64,000 nucleotides of DNA from NCBI GenBank assembly GCA_965208615.1, contig CBDBPB010000001.1:288001-352000 (forward strand). Reading direction: 5' to 3'. The DNA comes from Spirochaetota bacterium (GTDB taxonomy: Bacteria > Spirochaetota > UBA6919 > CBDBPB01). Positions 10,040 through 60,701 of this stretch are shown one piece after another (the first letter of the stretch is position 1; every line of letters begins with the position of its first letter). The notes beneath the pieces are model-generated. The model saw only the letters and a list, made by a program, of their open reading frames with translations, did no database searches and was not told the origin of the DNA. The position numbers and the translations under genes are program-made.

Positions 10040-10721
10040 ACTTTCTTTCTCTAGTATGAGAGTTACCCTTATGCTTATCAATAAAAAGCTCGTCTATACG
10101 GATTTTATCAGCATAGGACTTATAAGATTTAGACTTTTCCTTTTTTTTGTACCAATTATTTTTATACCAATTGAATATTAAAACTGCTAATATTATTACT
10201 ATAGTAGAATAGGCAAATAGATGTTTATATATAGTTTGTATGTAGTCCTTTTTTGTATAAGCAATAAATAACGTATTCAAGCGTTTATCAGCTTTCTTAC
10301 TTATAGGTAGGTCTTTATGGTAAATTAGATAAGGATCTTTATCAAAGATATTTTGTTTAACCTTGCCACCTTTATGGAAAAGGTCTTCTAATAATATTTT
10401 AGGTAGATAATCACTATCTTTATAGCTTGCCATAGCTGGTTGAAATATACCATATTCAATCTTCCCAAGCTGATAAGAGCTAAATGTAGGTTCTTTATCC
10501 AAAAGTTCATTAAACGCCAACTCAATAACTAAGGCCTTATCTTTTATTTGTTCCGCTGTGAGAATAGTAATTATATCCTTAGCAGTATTTTCAGACTTTA
10601 GTAAAAGACTATTATGATAATCTTTTAGTCTATCCCTTTCTATAAAGATTCCAACAAAATAAGTCAATCCAAAGACTGCCAAAGCTAAAACCAAAAAGTG
10701 AGTTAAAAACTGTCTTTTCAT
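10032..10721 (-). CDS. Hypothetical protein with two transmembrane helices flanking a periplasmic domain
   Basis: Hydrophobic segments near residues 8-27 and 168-186; overlaps the next gene. Confidence 0.6.
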   Translation of the reverse strand: MKRQFLTHFLVLALAVFGLTYFVGIFIERDRLKDYHNSLLLKSENTAKDIITILTAEQIKDKALVIELAFNELLDKEPTFSSYQLGKIEYGIFQPAMASYKDSDYLPKILLEDLFHKGGKVKQNIFDKDPYLIYHKDLPISKKADKRLNTLFIAYTKKDYIQTIYKHLFAYSTIVIILAVLIFNWYKNNWYKKKEKSKSYKSYADKIRIDELFIDKHKGNSHTRERKYG

Positions 10722-10797
10722 ATAAACCTACCCATTTAGGAGGTCGACTTATTAATAAAAAACTTTACTATATTTTAAAACCGCCAAACACCAATAC

Positions 10798-52771: not shown

Positions 52772-53512
52772 TTAGACTAGTTCCCAGCAACCGAATCCCA
52801 TAGAGTTTTTTGAACCTATTCCGCTATCATAGGCTATATCGATTAATTTATTATTAGCAGTTATGCTGTATAGTCCTAAATATCCTTCTATAATAAGGTT
52901 TTTATATTTAGTAATTATTTTTTGTGGATTATTTAGTGGTTTAAAGGTAAAAATAGTAGGTTCTATATTATTAACTGTAGGTATATTAAGTTGTGGATTA
53001 GCGTTAGCTTTTTTTAAGAGGTTATCATGTATAAGCTTTTCAAACACTGGATCACGGGGATTATAAAAGTGTATTTTTTTATTATTAGTTGAGTATTGTG
53101 TAACGGGTGATAGCATTTTTATAGTTATTTTATGATTAAAGTTTTGTTTGTTGTGGATTTTAATACCGTTTAGTTTTAATTTATTTTGTCCTAGAGTTAT
53201 GTTATGGGATTTCATTTGATTTTCAATCATACTAATGGCAATCTTTTCAACGGCGGTAGACAGGGTGAACTGAACATTTTTACCAAAGTTTAATGTTTTA
53301 TTTGATTTATTAAATGAGGTTTTTGTATTGCTTTTGAGCAGTGAAAAGCAAAATAGTTTAAAATGTCTTCCGTTTATTTTATATCCTTGTTTATGTAGGA
53401 AGGATGCAAAATCTTTTTCTAGATATTTGTATATCATAGCTTGTATAAAGTGATTATAGTTAACGGGGAGGATAATATCCAATTGTGATGAGAAGCTTAT
53501 AGTAATACGCAT
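52772..53512 (-). CDS. cas6: CRISPR-associated endoribonuclease Cas6
   Basis: P.NYNH.IQ..IY, FLH..GY, FKLFCFS, LSP, glycine loop GIGSKNSMGFG. Confidence 0.95.
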   Translation of the reverse strand: MRITISFSSQLDIILPVNYNHFIQAMIYKYLEKDFASFLHKQGYKINGRHFKLFCFSLLKSNTKTSFNKSNKTLNFGKNVQFTLSTAVEKIAISMIENQMKSHNITLGQNKLKLNGIKIHNKQNFNHKITIKMLSPVTQYSTNNKKIHFYNPRDPVFEKLIHDNLLKKANANPQLNIPTVNNIEPTIFTFKPLNNPQKIITKYKNLIIEGYLGLYSITANNKLIDIAYDSGIGSKNSMGFGCWELV

Positions 53513-53615
53513 TTTTTATTAATGTGTTATATGATATTAAATTACATTTAATTATTTATAGTTAAATGGTTCGGTAGAACTATCTTTTAGATATAGTTTT
53601 TATTATTAAAAAGTA

Positions 53616-53879
53616 AAATTGAAAATGATAAATTTTATCAATTTGGAGTGAAGCTTTTATGATTAATGAGTTGGAATAAGATAGATGTCATGGATATCCA
53701 AAACCTTTTTTATAAAAAAAAGAGTGTGATATTTATAAACATTTGTTTGTATAATAATATAATAAGCATTATGTTGGTATAGAGTTTTATTAATTATTTA
53801 AAATACACTATCGGAGGTTTGGGAATAAATTATAGAAATGCATGTTATAACTTATTGTTATATTATGAGTTATAAATGG
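53616..53879 (+). promoter_or_regulatory. CRISPR leader with promoter (GTGATA-N18-TATAAT at 53726-53755)
   Basis: AT-rich non-coding region abutting the first repeat; segments are duplicated at 54417-54446 and 60604-60665. Confidence 0.7.
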
Positions 53880-54302
53880 GTTTAACCGTACCTATAAGGA
53901 ATTGAAACATATAGCGATTTGTTAGAAAAGCTAGAGCTAGTCACTGTTTAACCGTACCTATAAGGAATTGAAACACTAGTAATCCTATACGTCCTACTGT
54001 TAATATTTCTCGTTTAACCGTACCTATAAGGAATTGAAACTAATTTTCGTCTGTTCTTATTTTAGAGAGGGGAGCCGTTTAACCGTACCTATAAGGAATT
54101 GAAACCATATACAAAATTTTTGTCCGCATTCGCATTCGCATGTTTAACCGTACCTATAAGGAATTGAAACTTTGAAAAACTTCCTGAAAGTATAACTAAA
54201 CTAACAAGTTTAACCGTACCTATAAGGAATTGAAACCTCTAAAACCGCTTACAGGACAGGCATATTTAAACCAGTTTAACCGTACCTATAAGGAATTGAA
54301 AC
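53880..54302 (+). CRISPR. CRISPR array, 7 identical 29-bp repeats GTTTAACCGTACCTATAAGGAATTGAAAC, 6 spacers of 36-37 bp
   Basis: Repeats start at 53880, 53946, 54012, 54077, 54142, 54208 and 54274; the ATTGAAAC 3' end gives + orientation. Confidence 0.99.
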
Positions 54303-54518
54303 TGAAATAGGACATACAAATAACACTATATTTTATTATAAAAACAATATTCTGAACAAATAAAATAAATATCATGACTATACAAAAACTAACTTTTTTA
54401 TAAAAAGTCATAAAACAGTGTGATATTTATAAACTTTTGTTTGTATTATAAAATAAGGTTATTAAAAACATTCTCTTTTGTTTTTGTTGTTTCTTTTGTA
54501 ACTCCTTTTTTTTGTTTG

Positions 54519-54547
54519 TACGACCTTAAGAGTTTCTTAGGGTCGTA
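54519..54547 (+). other. 13-bp RNA hairpin between the array and cas8b
   Basis: TACGACCTTAAGA-GTT-TCTTAGGGTCGTA, one G-U pair on the + strand. Confidence 0.8.
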
Positions 54548-54573
54548 TTTAAAAAGTCTTAATTTTGTTTTGC

Positions 54574-54602
54574 ATTTTATAGTATCTATAACAAGTTGAA
54601 AT
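54574..54602 (+). repeat. Degenerate solitary CRISPR repeat directly before the cas8b RBS
   Basis: ATTTTATAGTATCTATAACAAGTTGAAAT, 20/29 ungapped identity to the array repeat. Confidence 0.7.
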
Positions 54603-54614
54603 AGGAGAGAAATA

Positions 54615-56405
54615 ATGATTAAGGCAATACAAGAGTTAGGTCAGCTTTTATTAAAAGAAAAGAATACAACAAGTATACTTACTAGCCTTTTAACTACCGC
54701 AGATTTAAATAAAATACAGTTAGTACTCGAAATTCATATTAAAAATGGAGAGTATACCAAGGTTTATTATGTTGCCTATCAAAAAGAAGACGGAGATAAA
54801 TATCTATATAAAAAGGGACCTGGTAATGGTGGAGATTATACCCTCTCTTCCAGGCTGAGCAAAGATACAAATACAAAAACCTTTCTTGCTAACAAAACTT
54901 TAAACCGTTTTAAGAACTGCTTTAATAATTTGCTAGCAAAGAAAAGTCTATCAGAAGATGATAAAAAACTAATTAATACCTTAAATGATAATTTTACAAG
55001 CTATTACAAAGAAATCGAAAAAGAGCTATATAACTTAGCTAATAAACTTAACAAAAAAGATGGCTATCTTGTAACTTTCATAATTGATGATAAACCTTTA
55101 TCTGAGTTTAAGGTTTTTAAAGATTCTATCTTAGAAGATTTTTATTCAAAGAGTTATACTAAACAAAATAAGAAGTCTATTGGAACTAATCAAGTATGTA
55201 GTATATGCCTTAATAAAAAGGCTGAAGTATATGGTCTATCAAAGAACTTCTCATTTTACACATTAGATAAATGGTCTTTTGTTAATTCAGGTTTTGATCT
55301 ACAAAAAGCCTGGCGTAATTATCCAGTTTGCCCAGAGTGTTTATTAGAGGTAGAGCTTGGCAAGCGAAAACTTATGAGTGAGTTTAGTTTTTCATTTTGT
55401 GGTTTTCGTTATTTACTAATCCCAAAGTTAGTTACTTCAAAGGATGAAGAGCTAAAAAAGGTATATGATCTTCTAAAGGATTTTAAGGGTCCCTCTTTCG
55501 AAAAAGAAGTAAAACAAGGTATTATTGATGGTGAAAACGAGGTACTGGAGCTTTTTAAAGACAAAAGTAATAACTTAAATCTCTTTTTTCTTTTCTATAA
55601 GATAGATAATTCAGCTTTTAGAATTCTTCTCACTTTAGAAGGGTTTAACCCTTCGCTAATAAGAAAACTATATTGTGCACAGGATAAAGCTCATAATGAA
55701 CCTATGTTTAAAAGAATTAAGAAACTTGAAGTGCTTGTTAAAGCTGGTTATGAGCCTCGCTTTACATTTAAAGTAGTAAGGAATTTCTTAGAAGACAAAT
55801 CATTTTTAGAAATTATTGGCAAGACATTTACACTAAGGCATATTAGCTATCAATATCTTATTGCTATGTTTATTAACAAAATACGCTATCAATTTGTTAA
55901 TAACTATTCTTCACTTATTCAAACATCAGATGCTTTTCTAATTTTATATTTTTTGCACCACTTAAACTTAATAAAAGTTAAAGGAGGAAATATGGATAAG
56001 TTTCATGATAATGACACTGAAGAAGAGTTCACAAAGCACTTTGAAGACCATAAAAGCTTTTTTAGTAATGAGCAATGTACTGCATTCTTAGTGGGTGTTT
56101 TAGTACAAAAGTTATTGAATATTCAATATCAAGATAAAAAAGCCAGTCCATTTTACAAACATCTTAATGGTCTACAAGTTAACGAGAAGCTCTTAAGGAG
56201 GGTGTTTGTTAAGGCTCAAAACAAATTAATAGAATATGAAAAAAACTATTATGTTAAATTAGAAGTTTTAATTTCAAAATACTTTGAGGTTTCAGACCTT
56301 GCAAAAACCACTAGTGATGAAATATCATTCTATTTTATAACAGGGATGAACCTAAGCCGTCTCTTCCTCAAAAAAGAAGATAGCAATTCAGATTCATCTA
56401 GTTAA
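54615..56405 (+). CDS. cas8b: Type I-B large subunit Cas8b (TM1802/Csh1-like)
   Basis: MI.AI..LG, KYLYK....NG, CSIC, FYTLDK, NYPVCPEC, AFLVGVL....L..Q, FYF..GM; upstream of cas7. Confidence 0.9.
   Translation: MIKAIQELGQLLLKEKNTTSILTSLLTTADLNKIQLVLEIHIKNGEYTKVYYVAYQKEDGDKYLYKKGPGNGGDYTLSSRLSKDTNTKTFLANKTLNRFKNCFNNLLAKKSLSEDDKKLINTLNDNFTSYYKEIEKELYNLANKLNKKDGYLVTFIIDDKPLSEFKVFKDSILEDFYSKSYTKQNKKSIGTNQVCSICLNKKAEVYGLSKNFSFYTLDKWSFVNSGFDLQKAWRNYPVCPECLLEVELGKRKLMSEFSFSFCGFRYLLIPKLVTSKDEELKKVYDLLKDFKGPSFEKEVKQGIIDGENEVLELFKDKSNNLNLFFLFYKIDNSAFRILLTLEGFNPSLIRKLYCAQDKAHNEPMFKRIKKLEVLVKAGYEPRFTFKVVRNFLEDKSFLEIIGKTFTLRHISYQYLIAMFINKIRYQFVNNYSSLIQTSDAFLILYFLHHLNLIKVKGGNMDKFHDNDTEEEFTKHFEDHKSFFSNEQCTAFLVGVLVQKLLNIQYQDKKASPFYKHLNGLQVNEKLLRRVFVKAQNKLIEYEKNYYVKLEVLISKYFEVSDLAKTTSDEISFYFITGMNLSRLFLKKEDSNSDSSS
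55992..56405 (+). CDS. cas11: Cas11 small subunit from an internal in-frame start within cas8b (137 aa)
   Basis: AAGGAGG at 55981-55987 then ATG 55992, in frame with cas8b (offset 1377 nt). Confidence 0.75.
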   Translation: MDKFHDNDTEEEFTKHFEDHKSFFSNEQCTAFLVGVLVQKLLNIQYQDKKASPFYKHLNGLQVNEKLLRRVFVKAQNKLIEYEKNYYVKLEVLISKYFEVSDLAKTTSDEISFYFITGMNLSRLFLKKEDSNSDSSS

Positions 56406-56431
56406 GCTAATTGTTTTAAGGAGGAAAAATT

Positions 56432-57316
56432 ATGTTAGATATTAAAAATAGAAGTGAATTATTATTTTTATATGATATTAGTGATGCTAATCCTAATGGC
56501 GATCCTGCTGATGAGAACCGTCCAAGAGTTGATGAAGAAACAGGTTATAATATTGTAACTGATGTACGTCTTAAAAGGACTATAAGAGACTATCTATTTG
56601 AAAACAAGGGATATAATGGTAGTGATGACAAGGATATTTTTGTAAGAGAGATTATTTATGATCAAAAAAATCAACATATACAAGACGGAAAAAGCAGAAC
56701 CAAGAACTTTGATAACGATAAAGAAAAGATAATAAACAGCTGTATTGATATTAGAATGTTTGGTGGGGTACTGCCTATTGAAAAAGATTCTATAACGTTT
56801 ACAGGACCTGTTCAATTTCAGATGGGCAGATCACTCCATCGTGTTTCCATCAATCACATTAAAGGCACAGGAGCTTTTGCCTCTAAGATGGGGGCTAAGC
56901 AAAAAACGTTTAGAGAGGAATATATTTTACCTTATTCACTTATAGCATTTCACGGTATTATAAATGAGAATGCCGCTAAGCATACAAACCTAACTACTGA
57001 AGATGTTAAATTACTTTTAGAGGGTATGTGGGAGGGAACTAAAAACCTTATTACCCGATCCAAGTTTGGACAGATGCCAAGACTATTACTAAAAGTAGAT
57101 TATAAAGATAACTTTTATATTGGAGAATTGCACAAGTTAGTTAGCTTAGATAGCGAAAAAGAGGATGAACACATAAGATCTACTGATGATTTTATACTTG
57201 ACGTGTCAAAGCTAAATATAGCTTTAGAAAAGTATAAAGACAAAATTGTAAAAGTTACACTTATAAATATATCCGATTCTCTTAAGTTATCTGAAAAGAT
57301 ATATGACGCTAATTAA
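56432..57316 (+). CDS. cas7: Type I-B Cas7/Csh2
   Basis: NRSELLFLYD....NPNGDP..ENRPR, VTDVRLKRTIRDY, D.RMFG, TGPVQF, TRSK.GQ.PRL. Confidence 0.95.
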   Translation: MLDIKNRSELLFLYDISDANPNGDPADENRPRVDEETGYNIVTDVRLKRTIRDYLFENKGYNGSDDKDIFVREIIYDQKNQHIQDGKSRTKNFDNDKEKIINSCIDIRMFGGVLPIEKDSITFTGPVQFQMGRSLHRVSINHIKGTGAFASKMGAKQKTFREEYILPYSLIAFHGIINENAAKHTNLTTEDVKLLLEGMWEGTKNLITRSKFGQMPRLLLKVDYKDNFYIGELHKLVSLDSEKEDEHIRSTDDFILDVSKLNIALEKYKDKIVKVTLINISDSLKLSEKIYDAN

Positions 57317-57327
57317 TCACATAAATT

Positions 57328-58077
57328 GTGAGGAAAAAAGTGAATAAATGTTTAATCTTTGATGTTTGGGGAGACTATGCTCACTTCAGAAAGTTTTATA
57401 CGACTTCTTCACCTATAACATTACCATTTCCTCCTAAGGCAACAATTGTTGGAATGATATCTGCTATTATAGGTTTAGATAAGGATATTTATCTTAAATC
57501 TTTTTCAAAAGAAGATTATCATATAGCTTTAGGAATTATTAATCCTATAAAAACATCATTTATTATGGAAAATTGGCTTGATGTTAAAAGATGGAGCTAT
57601 GAATTACGCACTAAAGAAATATTAGGTAAAAAACAACCTAAGCAACGAATATTAGCTCACACTCAAATAAAAATAGAGTGGGTTAAAGACCCTAAATATC
57701 GAATATATTTTTATCACAAAGATAATGATATACAAAACAACTTAAAACAGCATTTAAAGAACCATACATCATTCTATACCGTTACTCTAGGGGCCAGTGA
57801 GAACTTAGCTAATTTTAACTATATAGATGAACAAGACTTCCAACTGTCAGATACTGAACTAACCAGCATTAGGTCTGTTATTAGAAAAGAGCATCTTAAA
57901 GAAATTGACTGGTCTAATCCTCAAGAAATTAAGATACTAAACTATCCAATAGATATGACTGAAAATAGAATAACAGAATGCTATGACGAGTATCTTTACG
58001 AAAATAATGGAAACTCCATTAAGGCAAAACTTTATAAGGCAATGAGGATTAATGATTATGTCATCTGCCCTATGTAA
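57328..58077 (+). CDS. cas5: Type I-B Cas5
   Basis: FDVWGDYAHFRK.YTTSSP.T..FPP..T..G.I.AI.G, P.YRIY, Y...LG. Confidence 0.95.
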   Translation: MRKKVNKCLIFDVWGDYAHFRKFYTTSSPITLPFPPKATIVGMISAIIGLDKDIYLKSFSKEDYHIALGIINPIKTSFIMENWLDVKRWSYELRTKEILGKKQPKQRILAHTQIKIEWVKDPKYRIYFYHKDNDIQNNLKQHLKNHTSFYTVTLGASENLANFNYIDEQDFQLSDTELTSIRSVIRKEHLKEIDWSNPQEIKILNYPIDMTENRITECYDEYLYENNGNSIKAKLYKAMRINDYVICPM

Positions 58078-60495
58078 TCCAAAAGAGTTAAGCCTTTACT
58101 CTCATCCTAATAAGAAGTTATTTGATCATCTATTAAGAGGGTTTAATCACATTAAAGATCAAATAGATCGCTCTAAACTTTCATTTGATAAATATAATGC
58201 TGATGATATTAAATTAGCCTCTAAAATAGCCTATATATTCCATGACTTTGCTAAGTCTACACCTTTTTTTCAAGATTATATGAAAGAGATTATGGAAAAA
58301 GGTGAGTCTAAAAATCGTTCTAAAAATAAGAGTCACTCTCATTTATCAGCTATTGTAGGCTATTCTGTTGGAATAAAGGTCTTAAAATGTGAAGTGCTTG
58401 CTGTTCTAGTCTATGCCTCAATTAAATTACATCACTCAAATATTAAAGATTTTGATAAAGTCTTAATCATTTCAGACGAGGATAAAAACCTTTTAGAGAA
58501 ACAATTTCTATCCTTAAAAAAGTACTCAAAAGAAATTAATTGTACGTTCCAAACTCTTTTGGAGAAGGCTAACATAGACTATACATTTGATATGGAATAT
58601 ACTAAGGAGTCTTTTGGAGATTTGTGGAACCTTAAAAAAACTCTTCGTAAAAATAAAAAGGCTCTTTGTAATAAAGAAAAGCACACAAACGATATTAAAG
58701 AAATTGAGCCTTATTTAACCCTCTTATTTATATTTTCTTCTATAATTTATGGGGATAAGTCAGAAGCTATTTTAAAGCAAGATATTGATAAGACTAAGTT
58801 AGGAAGGTCTCCTTGGCGTTTCGACATAGTGAATAATTATATAACAAATCTTTCAAATAATTCCCCTATAAATAAGATTCGCAAGGATATCTATCAAGAT
58901 GCTTTAAATAATATTGAAACACTAGATTTAAAAAATAATAAGATTCTTACTTTAACTGTTCCAACAGGTGGGGGTAAAACATTAACATCGTTAGCTATTG
59001 CTACAAAAATCAATGAAATATTAAAAAAGAATGGAAAAATTATCTATTCTCTTCCCTTTACTTCTCTCATAGAGCAAAACCAAAATGTTTTAAAGATATT
59101 TTGAAAAACAATCAAATTAGCCAAGATGATAAAAATATACTAACCCATCACTATCTTAGTGATAGAGAGTTTAATGACTTTTCAGAAGATAATTATAATT
59201 TTGATATTGATAAATCTTCTCATCTTATCGAAACCTGGAATAGTCATTTAGTAATTACTACTTTTATTCAATTTTGTAATAGTGTTTTTAATAATCGTAA
59301 TAAAAATCTCAAGCGATTTCTCCAATTGAGAGATAGTATTATAATTTTAGATGAAATTCAATGTTTTCCTACAAAATATCATAAGATATTCTCTAAAGTA
59401 ATTCAATGTCTTAGTCAATGTTTTAATATCCATTTTATTTTAATGACTGCCACTCAGCCTTATATTTTTGAACAGGGCATATCAAAAGAAATATTACCAT
59501 GTTCCAAAAGGTATTTCACTCAGTTTAATCGTACTAAATTAATCTACTCAGATAAGAAAGTTAAAATATGTGATTTAAATAATAACATGTTTAAACAGTG
59601 GGAACTGCAAAACAATAGTTTTCTTATTGTGATGAATACTATTAGCTCATCCATTAAGCTGTTTAATGAGCTTAAAGCTAAACTAGAAAGACATATCCCC
59701 TTTTATCTTTCAACTAATATTATCCCCAAAGAACGACAGCACCGAATAAAAGAAATTAAAAGACTTTTGAAAAGTAAAAAAAATATTTTTGTTGTAAGTA
59801 CACAATTAATTGAGGCAGGAGTTGATCTTGATTTCCCTTTGGTTATAAGAGATTTTGCACCTCTTGATAGCATTAATCAAATTGCTGGAAGGTGTAATAG
59901 AAATGGCCTTAATGAAGGTAAACCTGTTTACGTTATTGAGCTACAAGATGATAACAATAAAAGCTTTGCAAATTATGTATATGATAACATATTGTTACAC
60001 ATTACCAAAAATATACTTAAACCAGAAATTAAAGAAAATGAGCTTTATAGTTTTGCTAAAACATATTTTGATGATGTTAACAAAAAACGTAGTCAAGACT
60101 TTATAGACCTGTGGCAATCTTTTTGTAGATTAAGCTTTGAAAAAGCATATAGTAGTGTAAATGGGAATAGCGGAGGCCTTAATCTCATTGAAAACCTGCC
60201 AAATTATGTTAATGTCTTTGTAGAAATTGATGAAGAGGCTAAAATAGTTTGGGAGAAATATGATAATAACATATTATCAAATAAAAAGCTTAATAACATT
60301 GAAAAAAGAACAAAATATAAACAGATTGTAAACGAACTTAATAAGTATATCGTTAATACACCTTTGAAAATTGCTGATAAGTTTGTAGAAGTTTATGATA
60401 AGTCGCTATACAAAATTGATTATGAAAGTATAGAGCATTACTATAATATGGAAACAGGTGTAAAACGTGGAGAAGAAGATATTTATGTCATCTAA
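58052..60495 (+). CDS. cas3: Cas3 HD nuclease-helicase, interrupted by a 1-nt deletion at 59088-59091 (ORFs 58052..59104 and 59101..60495)
   Basis: SHP...L.DH, HDFAK, HH, VPTGGGKT, LPFTSLIEQ in part 1; DEIQ, MTAT, STQLIEAGVD, Q.AGRCNR in part 2; adding one T gives QNQNVFKDILKN. Confidence 0.9.
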
Positions 60496-60701
60496 CATAG
60501 ATCGTTTTTTACATCTGGATGAATATGAACGCTCAAAGACTATTAAATTATTAATATCTAAAAAAGAAAATTATGCTATCCTTGATTTTCCTATAATTTT
60601 AAGAAATTGAAAATGATAAATTTTGTCAATTTGCAGTCAAGATTTTACCATTAAGAATAAGATAGCTTTTAAAAAAATACCCAGTATACACTTATATAAA
60701 A

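What the first reader, a model, noticed from the sequence alone, without database searches (positions are those of the whole stretch)
54365..54614. Candidate CRISPR-like regulatory RNA / RNA toxin-antitoxin module between the array and cas8b
Seen in order: (1) a second copy of the leader promoter (54417-54446, 29/30 identical to 53723-53752) that uniquely carries an insert GTCATAAAAC just upstream; (2) a U-rich tract with anti-SD ACTCCTTT (54501-54508); (3) a 13-bp hairpin whose 5' arm GTTTGTACGACCTTAAG resembles the repeat start GTTTAACCGTACCTATAAG; (4) a 24-nt spacer-like segment from 54550 whose start TAAAAAGTCTTAA matches 54401-54413 (12/13), with TTA immediately 5' of that target, next to the -35; (5) a degenerate repeat at 54574-54602. 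Established: CreTA and CreR/crlRNA elements lie just upstream of cas8 in I-B loci and repress promoters by partial pairing; TTA is a reported I-B PAM. Inference: a mini-guide represses its own/cas promoter, and the anti-SD hairpin RNA may be a new toxin type making the adaptation-less locus addictive. Weak point: the implied 5' handle (GTCGTATT) matches ATTGAAAC poorly.
Basis: partly seen in the sequence, partly recalled or inferred. Interest (0 to 1): 0.78.

Follow-up and report, generated by a model that had tools for sequence, protein, structure and literature searches.

The report
Decayed CRISPR copy leading cas8b
The stretch in front of cas8b is a worn-down second copy of the neighbouring CRISPR unit that now supplies the promoter and leader of the cas operon and may let the Cas proteins throttle their own production, a kind of control already described in other bacteria.

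Summary
The features are at the stated coordinates. Three exceed chance:
- the second copy of the promoter-like module (29/30, found only at these two places in the genome);
- the degenerate repeat 54574-54602 (20/29), together with a copy of the array's trailer that now carries the cas8b SD;
- a 14-bp hairpin.

Two do not clearly exceed chance. The likeness of the hairpin arm to the repeat start is reached by 250 of 2000 shuffles. The 12/13 guide-target match is reached by 60 of 1000 shuffles.

The region 54393-54615 is a decayed tandem copy of the array unit: promoter at its 5' end, terminal repeat plus trailer at its 3' end, no leader core.

The favoured reading (0.38) is a CreR-type self-repressing guide. 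The TTA PAM fits three of four profiled Cas8b1 systems. The target lies 6 nt from the -35. The 24-nt guide is of repression-only length.

The main objection is that the implied 5' handle matches the repeat at only 3 of 8 positions, and that handle is essential in Haloferax I-B.

Rivals are a Cas6 site or structured leader acting in cis, or a relic. No CreT-like toxin was found. cas1, cas2 and cas4 lie on another contig. No orthologous locus and no RNA data could be reached.

The parts
52772..53512 (-). cas6, divergent from the array
   Evidence: PF01881 5e-28, PF21350; TIGR01877
53705..53762 (+). promoter-like module, copy 1 (GTGATA 53726-31, TATAAT 53750-55), upstream of the array leader
53813..53831 (+). 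leader core GGAGGTTTGGGAATAAATT, shared by all three arrays of the genome; the only copy in the window
53880..54302 (+). CRISPR array 1: 7 identical 29-nt repeats and 6 spacers of 36-37 nt; the repeat ends in ATTGAAAC
   Evidence: the AUUGAAAC tag is documented for related I-B repeats
54303..54323 (+). array trailer TGAAATAGGACATACAAATAA
   Evidence: paralogous to 54597-54615; 0 of 500 shuffles reach the score
54393..54456 (+). promoter-like module, copy 2, taken to be P_cas8b (GTGATA 54420-25, TATTAT 54444-49), with six extra bases at about 54407-54412
54398..54413 (+). TTA plus a 13-nt site matching the guide-like stretch, 6 nt upstream of the -35
   Evidence: PAM by analogy
54457..54517 (+). 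U-rich leader; CUCCU at 54502-54506 can pair with the cas8b SD
   Evidence: MFE and centroid of 54495-54615
54518..54548 (+). 14-bp hairpin, unique in the genome, not followed by a U run
54550..54573 (+). 24-nt guide-like stretch (psiS); its 3' part can also pair with cas8b codons 2-4
54574..54602 (+). degenerate repeat (20/29). Its last eight bases GTTGAAAT keep TTGAAA. A Cas6 cut would be expected between 54594 and 54595
   Evidence: handle rules
54603..54617 (+). SD AGGAG (54603-07) and the cas8b start codon, inside the trailer-like copy
54615..56405 (+). cas8b (TM1802 family)
   Evidence: PF09484 3.3e-111 covering 1-601 of 602 profile positions; TIGR02556
56432..58077 (+). cas7 (56432-57316) and cas5 (57328-58077)
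58052..60495 (+). cas3 in two overlapping frames. The break near 59101 falls inside the helicase core
   Evidence: the same sequence stands in a contig of run X1

Best explanation
Shown:
- 54393-54615 is a decayed tandem copy of the CRISPR unit that lies just upstream of it.
- Its 5' end is a second copy of the promoter-like module found before the array leader.
- Its 3' end is a degenerate copy of the terminal repeat plus trailer, and that trailer copy carries the SD of cas8b.
- The leader core needed for spacer uptake is absent.
- The copy therefore provides the promoter and a roughly 160-nt structured leader for cas8b-cas7-cas5-cas3.

Inferred, and favoured:
- The leader is a degenerate mini-CRISPR of the CreR kind.
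- Cas6 cuts in the degenerate repeat. The 24-nt stretch before it is loaded into Cascade.
- Through bases 1-9 and 11-13 it pairs with the TTA-flanked site 6 nt upstream of the -35 of the very promoter that makes it.
- A guide this short and this partial would block RNA polymerase without recruiting Cas3. Cascade would then hold down its own operon and release it when crRNAs or anti-CRISPRs soak up Cas proteins.
- The array's own promoter copy lacks the six extra bases and keeps only a 6-nt match, so it would escape.

Unresolved: how the 5' end of such a guide would be made and held.
For: - Duplication: the promoter module is 29/30 and unique to two sites. For the repeat, 6 of 500 shuffles reach the score. 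For the trailer, 0 of 500 do. The leader core occurs once in the window, at 53813.
- Guide and target: 12/13 with TTA. The seed positions that matter in T. maritima (1-5 and 7) all match.
- PAM: TTA is within the PAM of T. maritima (YYD), H. thermocellum (TTN/TNA) and P. thermoglucosidasius (TTA), all Cas8b1 systems with AAC next to the repeat, as here.
- Guide length: guides of 11-25 nt repress, and guides of 26 nt or less do not cut.
- Precedent: CreA/CreR guides pair by 10-15 nt with cas or toxin promoters. H. hubeiense CreA represses the promoter that transcribes it.
- The same genome holds a cleaner two-repeat mini-array beside its orphan array.
Against: - The implied 5' handle GTCGTATT matches at 3 of 8 positions and lies in the 3' arm of a 14-bp stem.
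- In H. volcanii I-B the 5' handle is essential and the 3' handle is dispensable.
- In known creA/creR genes it is the upstream repeat that keeps the handle.
- The upstream 'repeat' is not above chance.
- The 12/13 match alone is reached by 60 of 1000 shuffles, and 52 other such sites exist in the genome.
- The best-kept part of the degenerate repeat is its own handle. That is the mark of an upstream repeat, not a downstream one.
- The PAM of this system could not be derived.
- There is no orthologous locus to test conservation or covariation.
Confidence: 0.38

Rival explanations
1. Relic. The tandem copy survives only as promoter, SD and start region of cas8b. The degenerate repeat is decaying, and the 12/13 match and the likeness of the hairpin arm to the repeat are chance in AT-rich DNA.
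For: - The match is reached by 60 of 1000 shuffles, and by 104 of 500 for the whole leader.
- 52 other genomic sites match at 12/13.
- psiR1 is reached by 250 of 2000 shuffles.
- The repeat carries 9 of 29 changes.
- Shmakov et al. regard many single repeat units as spurious duplications (passage).
- cas3 is frameshifted, so the locus may be decaying.
- A GTTGAAAG-GGAG context before cas8b also occurs in 2 Tepidanaerobacter loci, where it may simply be SD context.
Against: - The promoter copy is 29/30 while the 117 nt between the promoter copy and the repeat (54457-54573) have diverged beyond recognition, which points to selective retention.
- The GC-rich 14-bp hairpin (z -6.3) in a U-rich leader is not expected from decay.
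- PAM, strand-independent position at the -35 and short guide length all fit together.
- The six handle positions that are essential in Haloferax are all intact. The probability given 9 random changes is 0.08.
Confidence: 0.3
2. Cis-acting leader with a single repeat unit.
- The degenerate repeat is a Cas6 site in the cas8b 5' UTR.
- The uncut leader folds over the SD and start codon.
- Cutting at 54594/54595 frees them. It also trims read-through from the array.
- The operon mRNA would then begin with GUUGAAAU plus the SD.
- No DNA targeting is involved.
For: - In the handle GTTGAAAT, only the first and last bases differ from the repeat. These are the two positions that tolerate change in H. 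volcanii, where U is accepted at the last position.
- CUCCU 54502-06 pairs with AGGAG 54603-07 in both the MFE and the centroid fold of 54495-54615.
- In the longer fold, 54556-54571 pairs with the start region. The leader folds with z -3.7, and 0 of 200 shuffles fold as well.
- No terminator lies between the array and cas8b, so read-through is likely.
Against: - The two folds disagree on what covers the SD.
- Most of the folding energy comes from the hairpin alone.
- The small stem of the true repeat is lost in the copy, so recognition by Cas6 is unproven.
- I found no described case of this mechanism in the papers read.
Confidence: 0.2
3. CreTA-like addiction module. The U-rich, anti-SD, hairpin RNA (54457-54550) is a toxin, kept silent by the guide.
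For: The order of promoter, upstream RNA, then guide resembles H. hubeiense creTA, which is transcribed from one self-repressed promoter. One bacterial CreT is a small RNA thought to act on translation initiation (abstract only).
Against: - No SD followed by a start codon occurs on either strand of 54303-54614, so there is none of the mini-ORFs with rare codons that define the known CreT toxins.
- There is no terminator to release a small RNA.
- The RNA would be the leader of the cas mRNA itself.
- The hairpin and U-tract are unique in the genome, and there is no Rfam match.
Confidence: 0.03

Closest known systems
CreR (Cas-regulating RNA) genes, the degenerate mini-CRISPRs of type I-B, I-E and V-A (Liu et al., bioRxiv 10.1101/2023.03.10.532045; sections 5 and 8 read)
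   Same: - Repeat-derived DNA in the intergenic space before the effector genes.
- No accompanying toxin.
- A spacer-like stretch that matches a PAM-flanked site next to the cas promoter only partially.
- The expected outcome is autorepression that senses free Cascade.
   Different: - The upstream repeat and its 5' handle are not recognisable here. In CreR they are the best-kept part.
- The element sits inside the 5' UTR of the operon it would repress.
- It is driven by a copy of the array's own promoter.
- The guide is 24 nt long.
CreTA of haloarchaeal I-B systems (PMC8501985, passages read; the Science 2021 paper is known only through these)
   Same: It lies in an I-B locus. The guide pairs through seed positions with the promoter that transcribes it, as in H. 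hubeiense. It lacks the leader.
   Different: No CreT-type mini-ORF. The seed has a mismatch at position 10. The 5' handle is not kept.
Mini-arrays and single repeat units in CRISPR-cas loci (Shmakov et al., PMC10120712; passages read)
   Same: [quoted passage not shown] One repeat is degenerate. The predicted target lies in a cas promoter with a fitting PAM.
   Different: - In their cases the seed lies next to the better repeat. Here the better repeat lies 3' of the guide.
- The longest exact run shared with the repeat is 6 nt, below their stated 16-bp match threshold.
- Their I-B cases mostly lie around cas6.
Repression by truncated crRNAs in the P. thermoglucosidasius I-B system (PMC10551041; passages read)
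   Same: A Cas8b1-type system with an AAC repeat end and a TTA PAM. Guides of 11-25 nt repress transcription without cleavage.
   Different: Those guides were engineered between intact repeats and were fully complementary to their targets.

Membership tests
CreR / crlRNA mini-array | A repeat-like sequence derived from the cognate CRISPR repeat, outside the array and within the cas locus | tested here: met
   54574-54602 matches at 20/29; 6 of 500 shuffles reach the score. The flanking trailer copy is reached by 0 of 500
CreR / crlRNA mini-array | An upstream repeat (psiR1) whose last 8 nt keep the crRNA 5' handle | tested here: not met
   The 8 nt before the guide, GTCGTATT, match ATTGAAAC at 3 of 8. 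The psiR1 alignment is reached by 250 of 2000 shuffles. The rule comes, and the need for the handle
CreR / crlRNA mini-array | A downstream repeat that keeps the 3'-handle part (first 21-22 nt) | tested here: inconclusive
   14 of the first 21 bases are kept. The small stem of the repeat is lost and another forms. Cas6 recognition cannot be tested here
CreR / crlRNA mini-array | Spacer-like seed (nt 1-5 and 7-11) complementary to a cas or toxin promoter | tested here: inconclusive
   9 of 10 seed positions match, with a mismatch at position 10. The site lies 6 nt from the -35. By shuffles the match is only borderline, 60 of 1000
CreR / crlRNA mini-array | A functional PAM beside the target | tested here: inconclusive
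   TTA fits 3 of 4 profiled Cas8b1 systems. This system's own PAM could not be derived: no protospacer was found
CreR / crlRNA mini-array | No leader element for spacer uptake | tested here: met
   The leader core occurs once in the window, at 53813, and not in 54393-54615
CreR / crlRNA mini-array | Conservation in related loci, with guide and target changing together | not testable with these tools
   The nearest Cas8b (67% identical) could not be reached as DNA. All loci that could be reached are 38% identical or less
CreR / crlRNA mini-array | A discrete Cas6-processed RNA | not testable with these tools
   No RNA run holds the stretch
CreTA | A CreT toxin: a small RNA with a strong SD and a mini-ORF carrying consecutive rare codons | tested here: not met
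   No SD followed by a start codon within 4-12 nt on either strand of 54303-54614
Intrinsic terminator or attenuator | A GC-rich stem followed by a U run | tested here: not met
   0 terminator-like sites in 53500-54700. The hairpin is followed by UUAAAAAG
Type I-B (Cas8b1/TM1802) effector locus | cas8b of the TM1802 family together with cas7, cas5, cas3 and cas6 | tested here: met
   PF09484 also rings in T. maritima and H. volcanii. cas3 is split by a frameshift

The most novel reading that the evidence does not exclude
The cas8b operon mRNA is itself turned into a crRNA-like molecule.
- Cas6 cuts the degenerate repeat 20 nt before the start codon.
- The message is left with a usable 5' handle, GUUGAAAU. 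The six positions that are essential in Haloferax are intact.
- Cas5 and Cas7 then assemble over the SD and start codon of their own mRNA.
- The amount of free Cascade subunits would set translation of the operon, an RNA-level feedback with no DNA target.
- The upstream anti-SD and hairpin would provide the opposite, Cas6-relieved state.
Probability: 0.08. Interest if true: 0.75.

Novelty: new member of a known kind. Interest (0 to 1): 0.4.

Why it matters
If the leader works as a guide, it would show a CreR-type circuit in which one duplicated promoter drives both the array and the cas operon, and only the cas copy carries the target. That wiring would link crRNA supply directly to Cas supply.

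The locus also shows, in one place, how such elements arise. The tandem copy of promoter, terminal repeat and trailer is still readable.

The missing 5' handle makes it a useful test case. Either handle-less guides can work in I-B systems, or guide-target matches of this strength should not be trusted without the handle.

As it stands, it is a plausible but unproven member of a kind described in 2021-2023.

Tried and rejected
- Orthologous loci. Cas8b searches gave nothing close: genome contigs with the protein, 0 relatives among 65 pattern matches; with an alignment, 193 relatives of which the best 80 were kept, all 38% or less; metagenome contigs, 24 loci, none close over the full length; 40 relatives, 2 matches at 34%; 400 genomes of the phylum, 6 matches at 36% or less.
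- Arrays beside cas8b in distant loci. Only 3 of 104 loci held an array within the flank. None showed a repeat copy near cas8b beyond the array's own end.
- Handle-like motif in the 300 nt before cas8b. Found in 6 of 51 loci on the sense strand and 5 of 51 on the other, so there is no enrichment.
- PAM from protospacers. Nothing useful in phage records for either array, none in the own genome for 12 spacers, and none in viral contigs for 3 of the 12 spacers.
- RNA evidence. No RNA holder is listed.
- Run X1 contigs. They reproduce 54014-60600 without a difference, but they probably come from the same data as the window.
- Rfam. Only the array repeats matched, below the gathering score.
- The hairpin region as a repeat of the second I-B system. 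298 of 500 shuffles score as well.
- A guide starting after the degenerate repeat. No PAM-flanked target stands out.
- Other registers of the guide. An ATTTAAAA handle at 54547-54554 (6/8) would put AAA in the PAM position (read).
- A match of the guide to 53359 inside cas6. Seed 10/10 and 17/24 overall, but with a GTT PAM and within the number expected by chance.
- Targets for the mini-array beside array 2. 150 low-complexity seed matches; the four sites whose surroundings I looked at lie inside open reading frames.

Full report
**The locus**

The window holds a type I-B effector locus. Its parts are:
- cas6 on the minus strand (52772-53512);
- an array of seven identical 29-nt repeats and six spacers of 36-37 nt (53880-54302);
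- a 312-nt gap;
- cas8b (PF09484/TIGR02556, the TM1802 family), cas7 and cas5;
- a cas3 that is split into two frames inside the helicase core.

The repeat ends in ATTGAAAC. RNA sequencing of related I-B repeats in C. thermocellum and M. maripaludis shows this as the 8-nt 5' tag, which fixes the plus strand as the transcribed one.

No cas1, cas2 or cas4 follows. The next gene is an FAD-linked oxidase on the other strand.

**Checking the five observations**

- Promoter-like module. The copies are 91% identical over 45 nt, with a further 14 of 14 just upstream. The 30-mer matches at 29/30, and no third site in the 2.46-Mb genome reaches even 23/30. Both copies scan as GTGATA, 18 nt, then TATAAT or TATTAT. 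Copy 2 carries six extra bases and one substitution just upstream of the -35.
- Anti-SD. ACTCCTTT is at 54501-54508.
- Hairpin. It has 14 bp, about -19 kcal/mol and z -6.3, and it is unique in the genome. No U run follows, and the scan finds no terminator in 53500-54700.
- Guide-target match. It is 12/13, with TTA directly 5' of the target.
- Degenerate repeat. 54574-54602 shares 20 of 29 bases with the repeat.

**Which features exceed chance**

- The repeat copy does. Six of 500 shuffles of 54303-54640 reach its score. Only 17 non-array sites among 4.9 million genome positions reach 20/29.
- The guide-target match is borderline. 60 of 1000 dinucleotide shuffles of the 40 nt before the repeat match the 80-nt promoter region equally well, as do 104 of 500 shuffles of the whole leader. 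The genome holds 52 other 12/13 sites.
- The likeness of the hairpin's 5' arm to the repeat start does not. 250 of 2000 shuffles do as well at the expected place. Part of that arm, TTTTGTTTGTA, also occurs in the promoter module.

The array trailer TGAAATAGGACATACAAATAA (54303-54323) recurs as TGAAATAGG--AGAGAAATAA at 54597-54615. It overlaps the end of the degenerate repeat and carries the SD and start of cas8b. None of 500 shuffles reaches this score.

So 54393-54615 begins like the array unit, with the promoter module, and ends like it, with the terminal repeat plus trailer. The 117 nt between the two (54457-54573) have diverged.

The leader core GGAGGTTTGGGAATAAATT is shared by all three arrays of this genome. 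It occurs only once in the window, at 53813. The region is therefore a decayed tandem copy of the CRISPR unit that now serves as the promoter and 5' UTR of the cas operon.

**The case for a CreR-type guide**

- Degenerate mini-CRISPRs before cas8 repress cas promoters through 10-15 nt of seed pairing beside a PAM.
- H. hubeiense CreA represses the very promoter that transcribes it.
- The four profiled Cas8b1 systems have the PAMs YYD, TTN/TNA, TTB/CCC and TTA, all with AAC or AGC next to the repeat. TTA fits three of them.
- PF09484 rings in T. maritima and H. volcanii, so this Cas8b belongs with that group at the family level.
- In P. thermoglucosidasius, guides of 11-25 nt repress, and guides of 26 nt or less do not cut. 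The stretch here is 24 nt.
- The target ends 6 nt before the -35, so a 24-nt footprint would cover most of the -35.
- The array's promoter copy lacks the six extra bases and keeps only six matching bases. Only the cas promoter would be hit.

**The case against**

- The guide needs a 5' handle. The eight bases before it, GTCGTATT, match ATTGAAAC at three positions and are paired in the hairpin.
- In H. volcanii I-B, changes to the 5' handle mostly abolish activity. Only the first base is free, and the last tolerates C, A or U. The whole 3' handle can be removed.
- In known creA and creR genes, the upstream repeat is the one that keeps the handle.
- Another register (ATTTAAAA, 6/8, at 54547-54554) would put AAA where the PAM should be.
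- In the degenerate repeat itself, the best-kept part is its own handle, GTTGAAAT. All six essential positions are intact. The chance of that, given nine random changes, is 0.08. This is the signature of an upstream repeat, not a downstream one.

**Two other readings that stay open**

First, a single repeat unit acting in cis. Cas6 would cut 20 nt before the start codon. That would separate the SD from a leader that can cover it:
- CUCCU 54502-06 pairs with AGGAG 54603-07 in both the MFE and the centroid of the local fold;
- in the longer fold, 54556-54571 pairs with the start region, at z -3.7.

The two folds disagree, so this is only a lead.

Second, a relic with no role beyond the promoter and SD.

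**The toxin idea**

It finds nothing to stand on:
- no SD followed by a start codon on either strand of 54303-54614;
- no terminator;
- no Rfam family.

**What could not be tested**

- Conservation and covariation. The only near relative of this Cas8b (67%) and the next (41%) are known as proteins alone. Every locus I could fetch is 38% identical or less.
- Expression. No RNA run holds the stretch.
- The PAM of this system. No protospacer was found.
- Contigs of run X1 reproduce 54014-60600 exactly, cas3 frameshift included, at a depth of about 6. They are probably the same data as the window and not an independent check.

**Verdict**

The regulatory-guide reading is coherent with published I-B biology but fails the one feature that matters most for loading a guide. 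I give:
- the guide reading, 0.38;
- a relic, 0.30;
- a cis-acting Cas6 site or structured leader, 0.20;
- a toxin-antitoxin module, 0.03.

Whichever holds, it belongs to a known kind of element. Interest is moderate.

Supplementary tables of the Shmakov and Liu papers were not opened. They may list comparable I-B cases.

Noticed in passing
L012:10966-11030 (-), which is G000 C1 280966-281030: A cleaner two-repeat mini-array lies just upstream of the leader of the orphan array 2. It has a handle-like ATTGAAAG (7/8), a 32-nt spacer-like stretch, a repeat copy with a 5-nt deletion (alignment score 30) and then a run of nine T. A 7/8 handle at a spacer-compatible distance is expected 0.008 times by chance. 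No convincing target was found.
   Followed up: partly
L012:10391-10819 (-): A second array with the same repeat, apart from its first base (7 repeats plus a decayed eighth). It has no cas genes beside it and lies between gyrA and the mannose-phosphate isomerase and RNase Y genes.
   Followed up: partly
L125:3668-12350 (G000 C2): A second, complete I-B locus of another variant: cas6, cas8b (Cst1-type), cas7 (DevR), a 295-aa ORF in the cas5 position with no Pfam match, cas3, cas4, cas1 and cas2. It has a 4-repeat array with a different repeat. Its leader shares the core GGAGGTTTGGGAATAAATT with both arrays of the window's system, so one adaptation module may feed all three arrays.
   Followed up: partly
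window 59095-59105: cas3 changes frame inside the helicase core, in a run of T followed by a run of A. The first frame ends at 59104 and the second starts at 59101. It could be a real break, a sequencing error at low depth, or a programmed shift.
   Followed up: partly
window 54106-54141 and L012 about 10687-10724 (-): Spacer 4 of array 1 and spacer 2 of array 2 share a 12-nt GAATGC-type repeat in opposite orientation. They may come from the same invader.
   Followed up: no
window 54286-54411 (-): A 41-codon hydrophobic ORF (MTFYKKVSFCIVMIFILF...) starts at the ATG created by the six extra bases in promoter copy 2 and runs into the last repeat. It has no SD before it, and AT-rich DNA gives such frames easily.
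   Followed up: partly
phage record MZ218124.1, 23693-23716: Paenibacillus phage SV21 holds 24 bases identical to part of this repeat, inside a hypothetical gene. It could be a solitary repeat-like sequence or chance.
   Followed up: no
window 54336 and 54496: In run X1, other contigs match this region only up to these points and then continue with unlike sequence. They may be strain variants or related loci sharing the promoter module (table 7).
   Followed up: no
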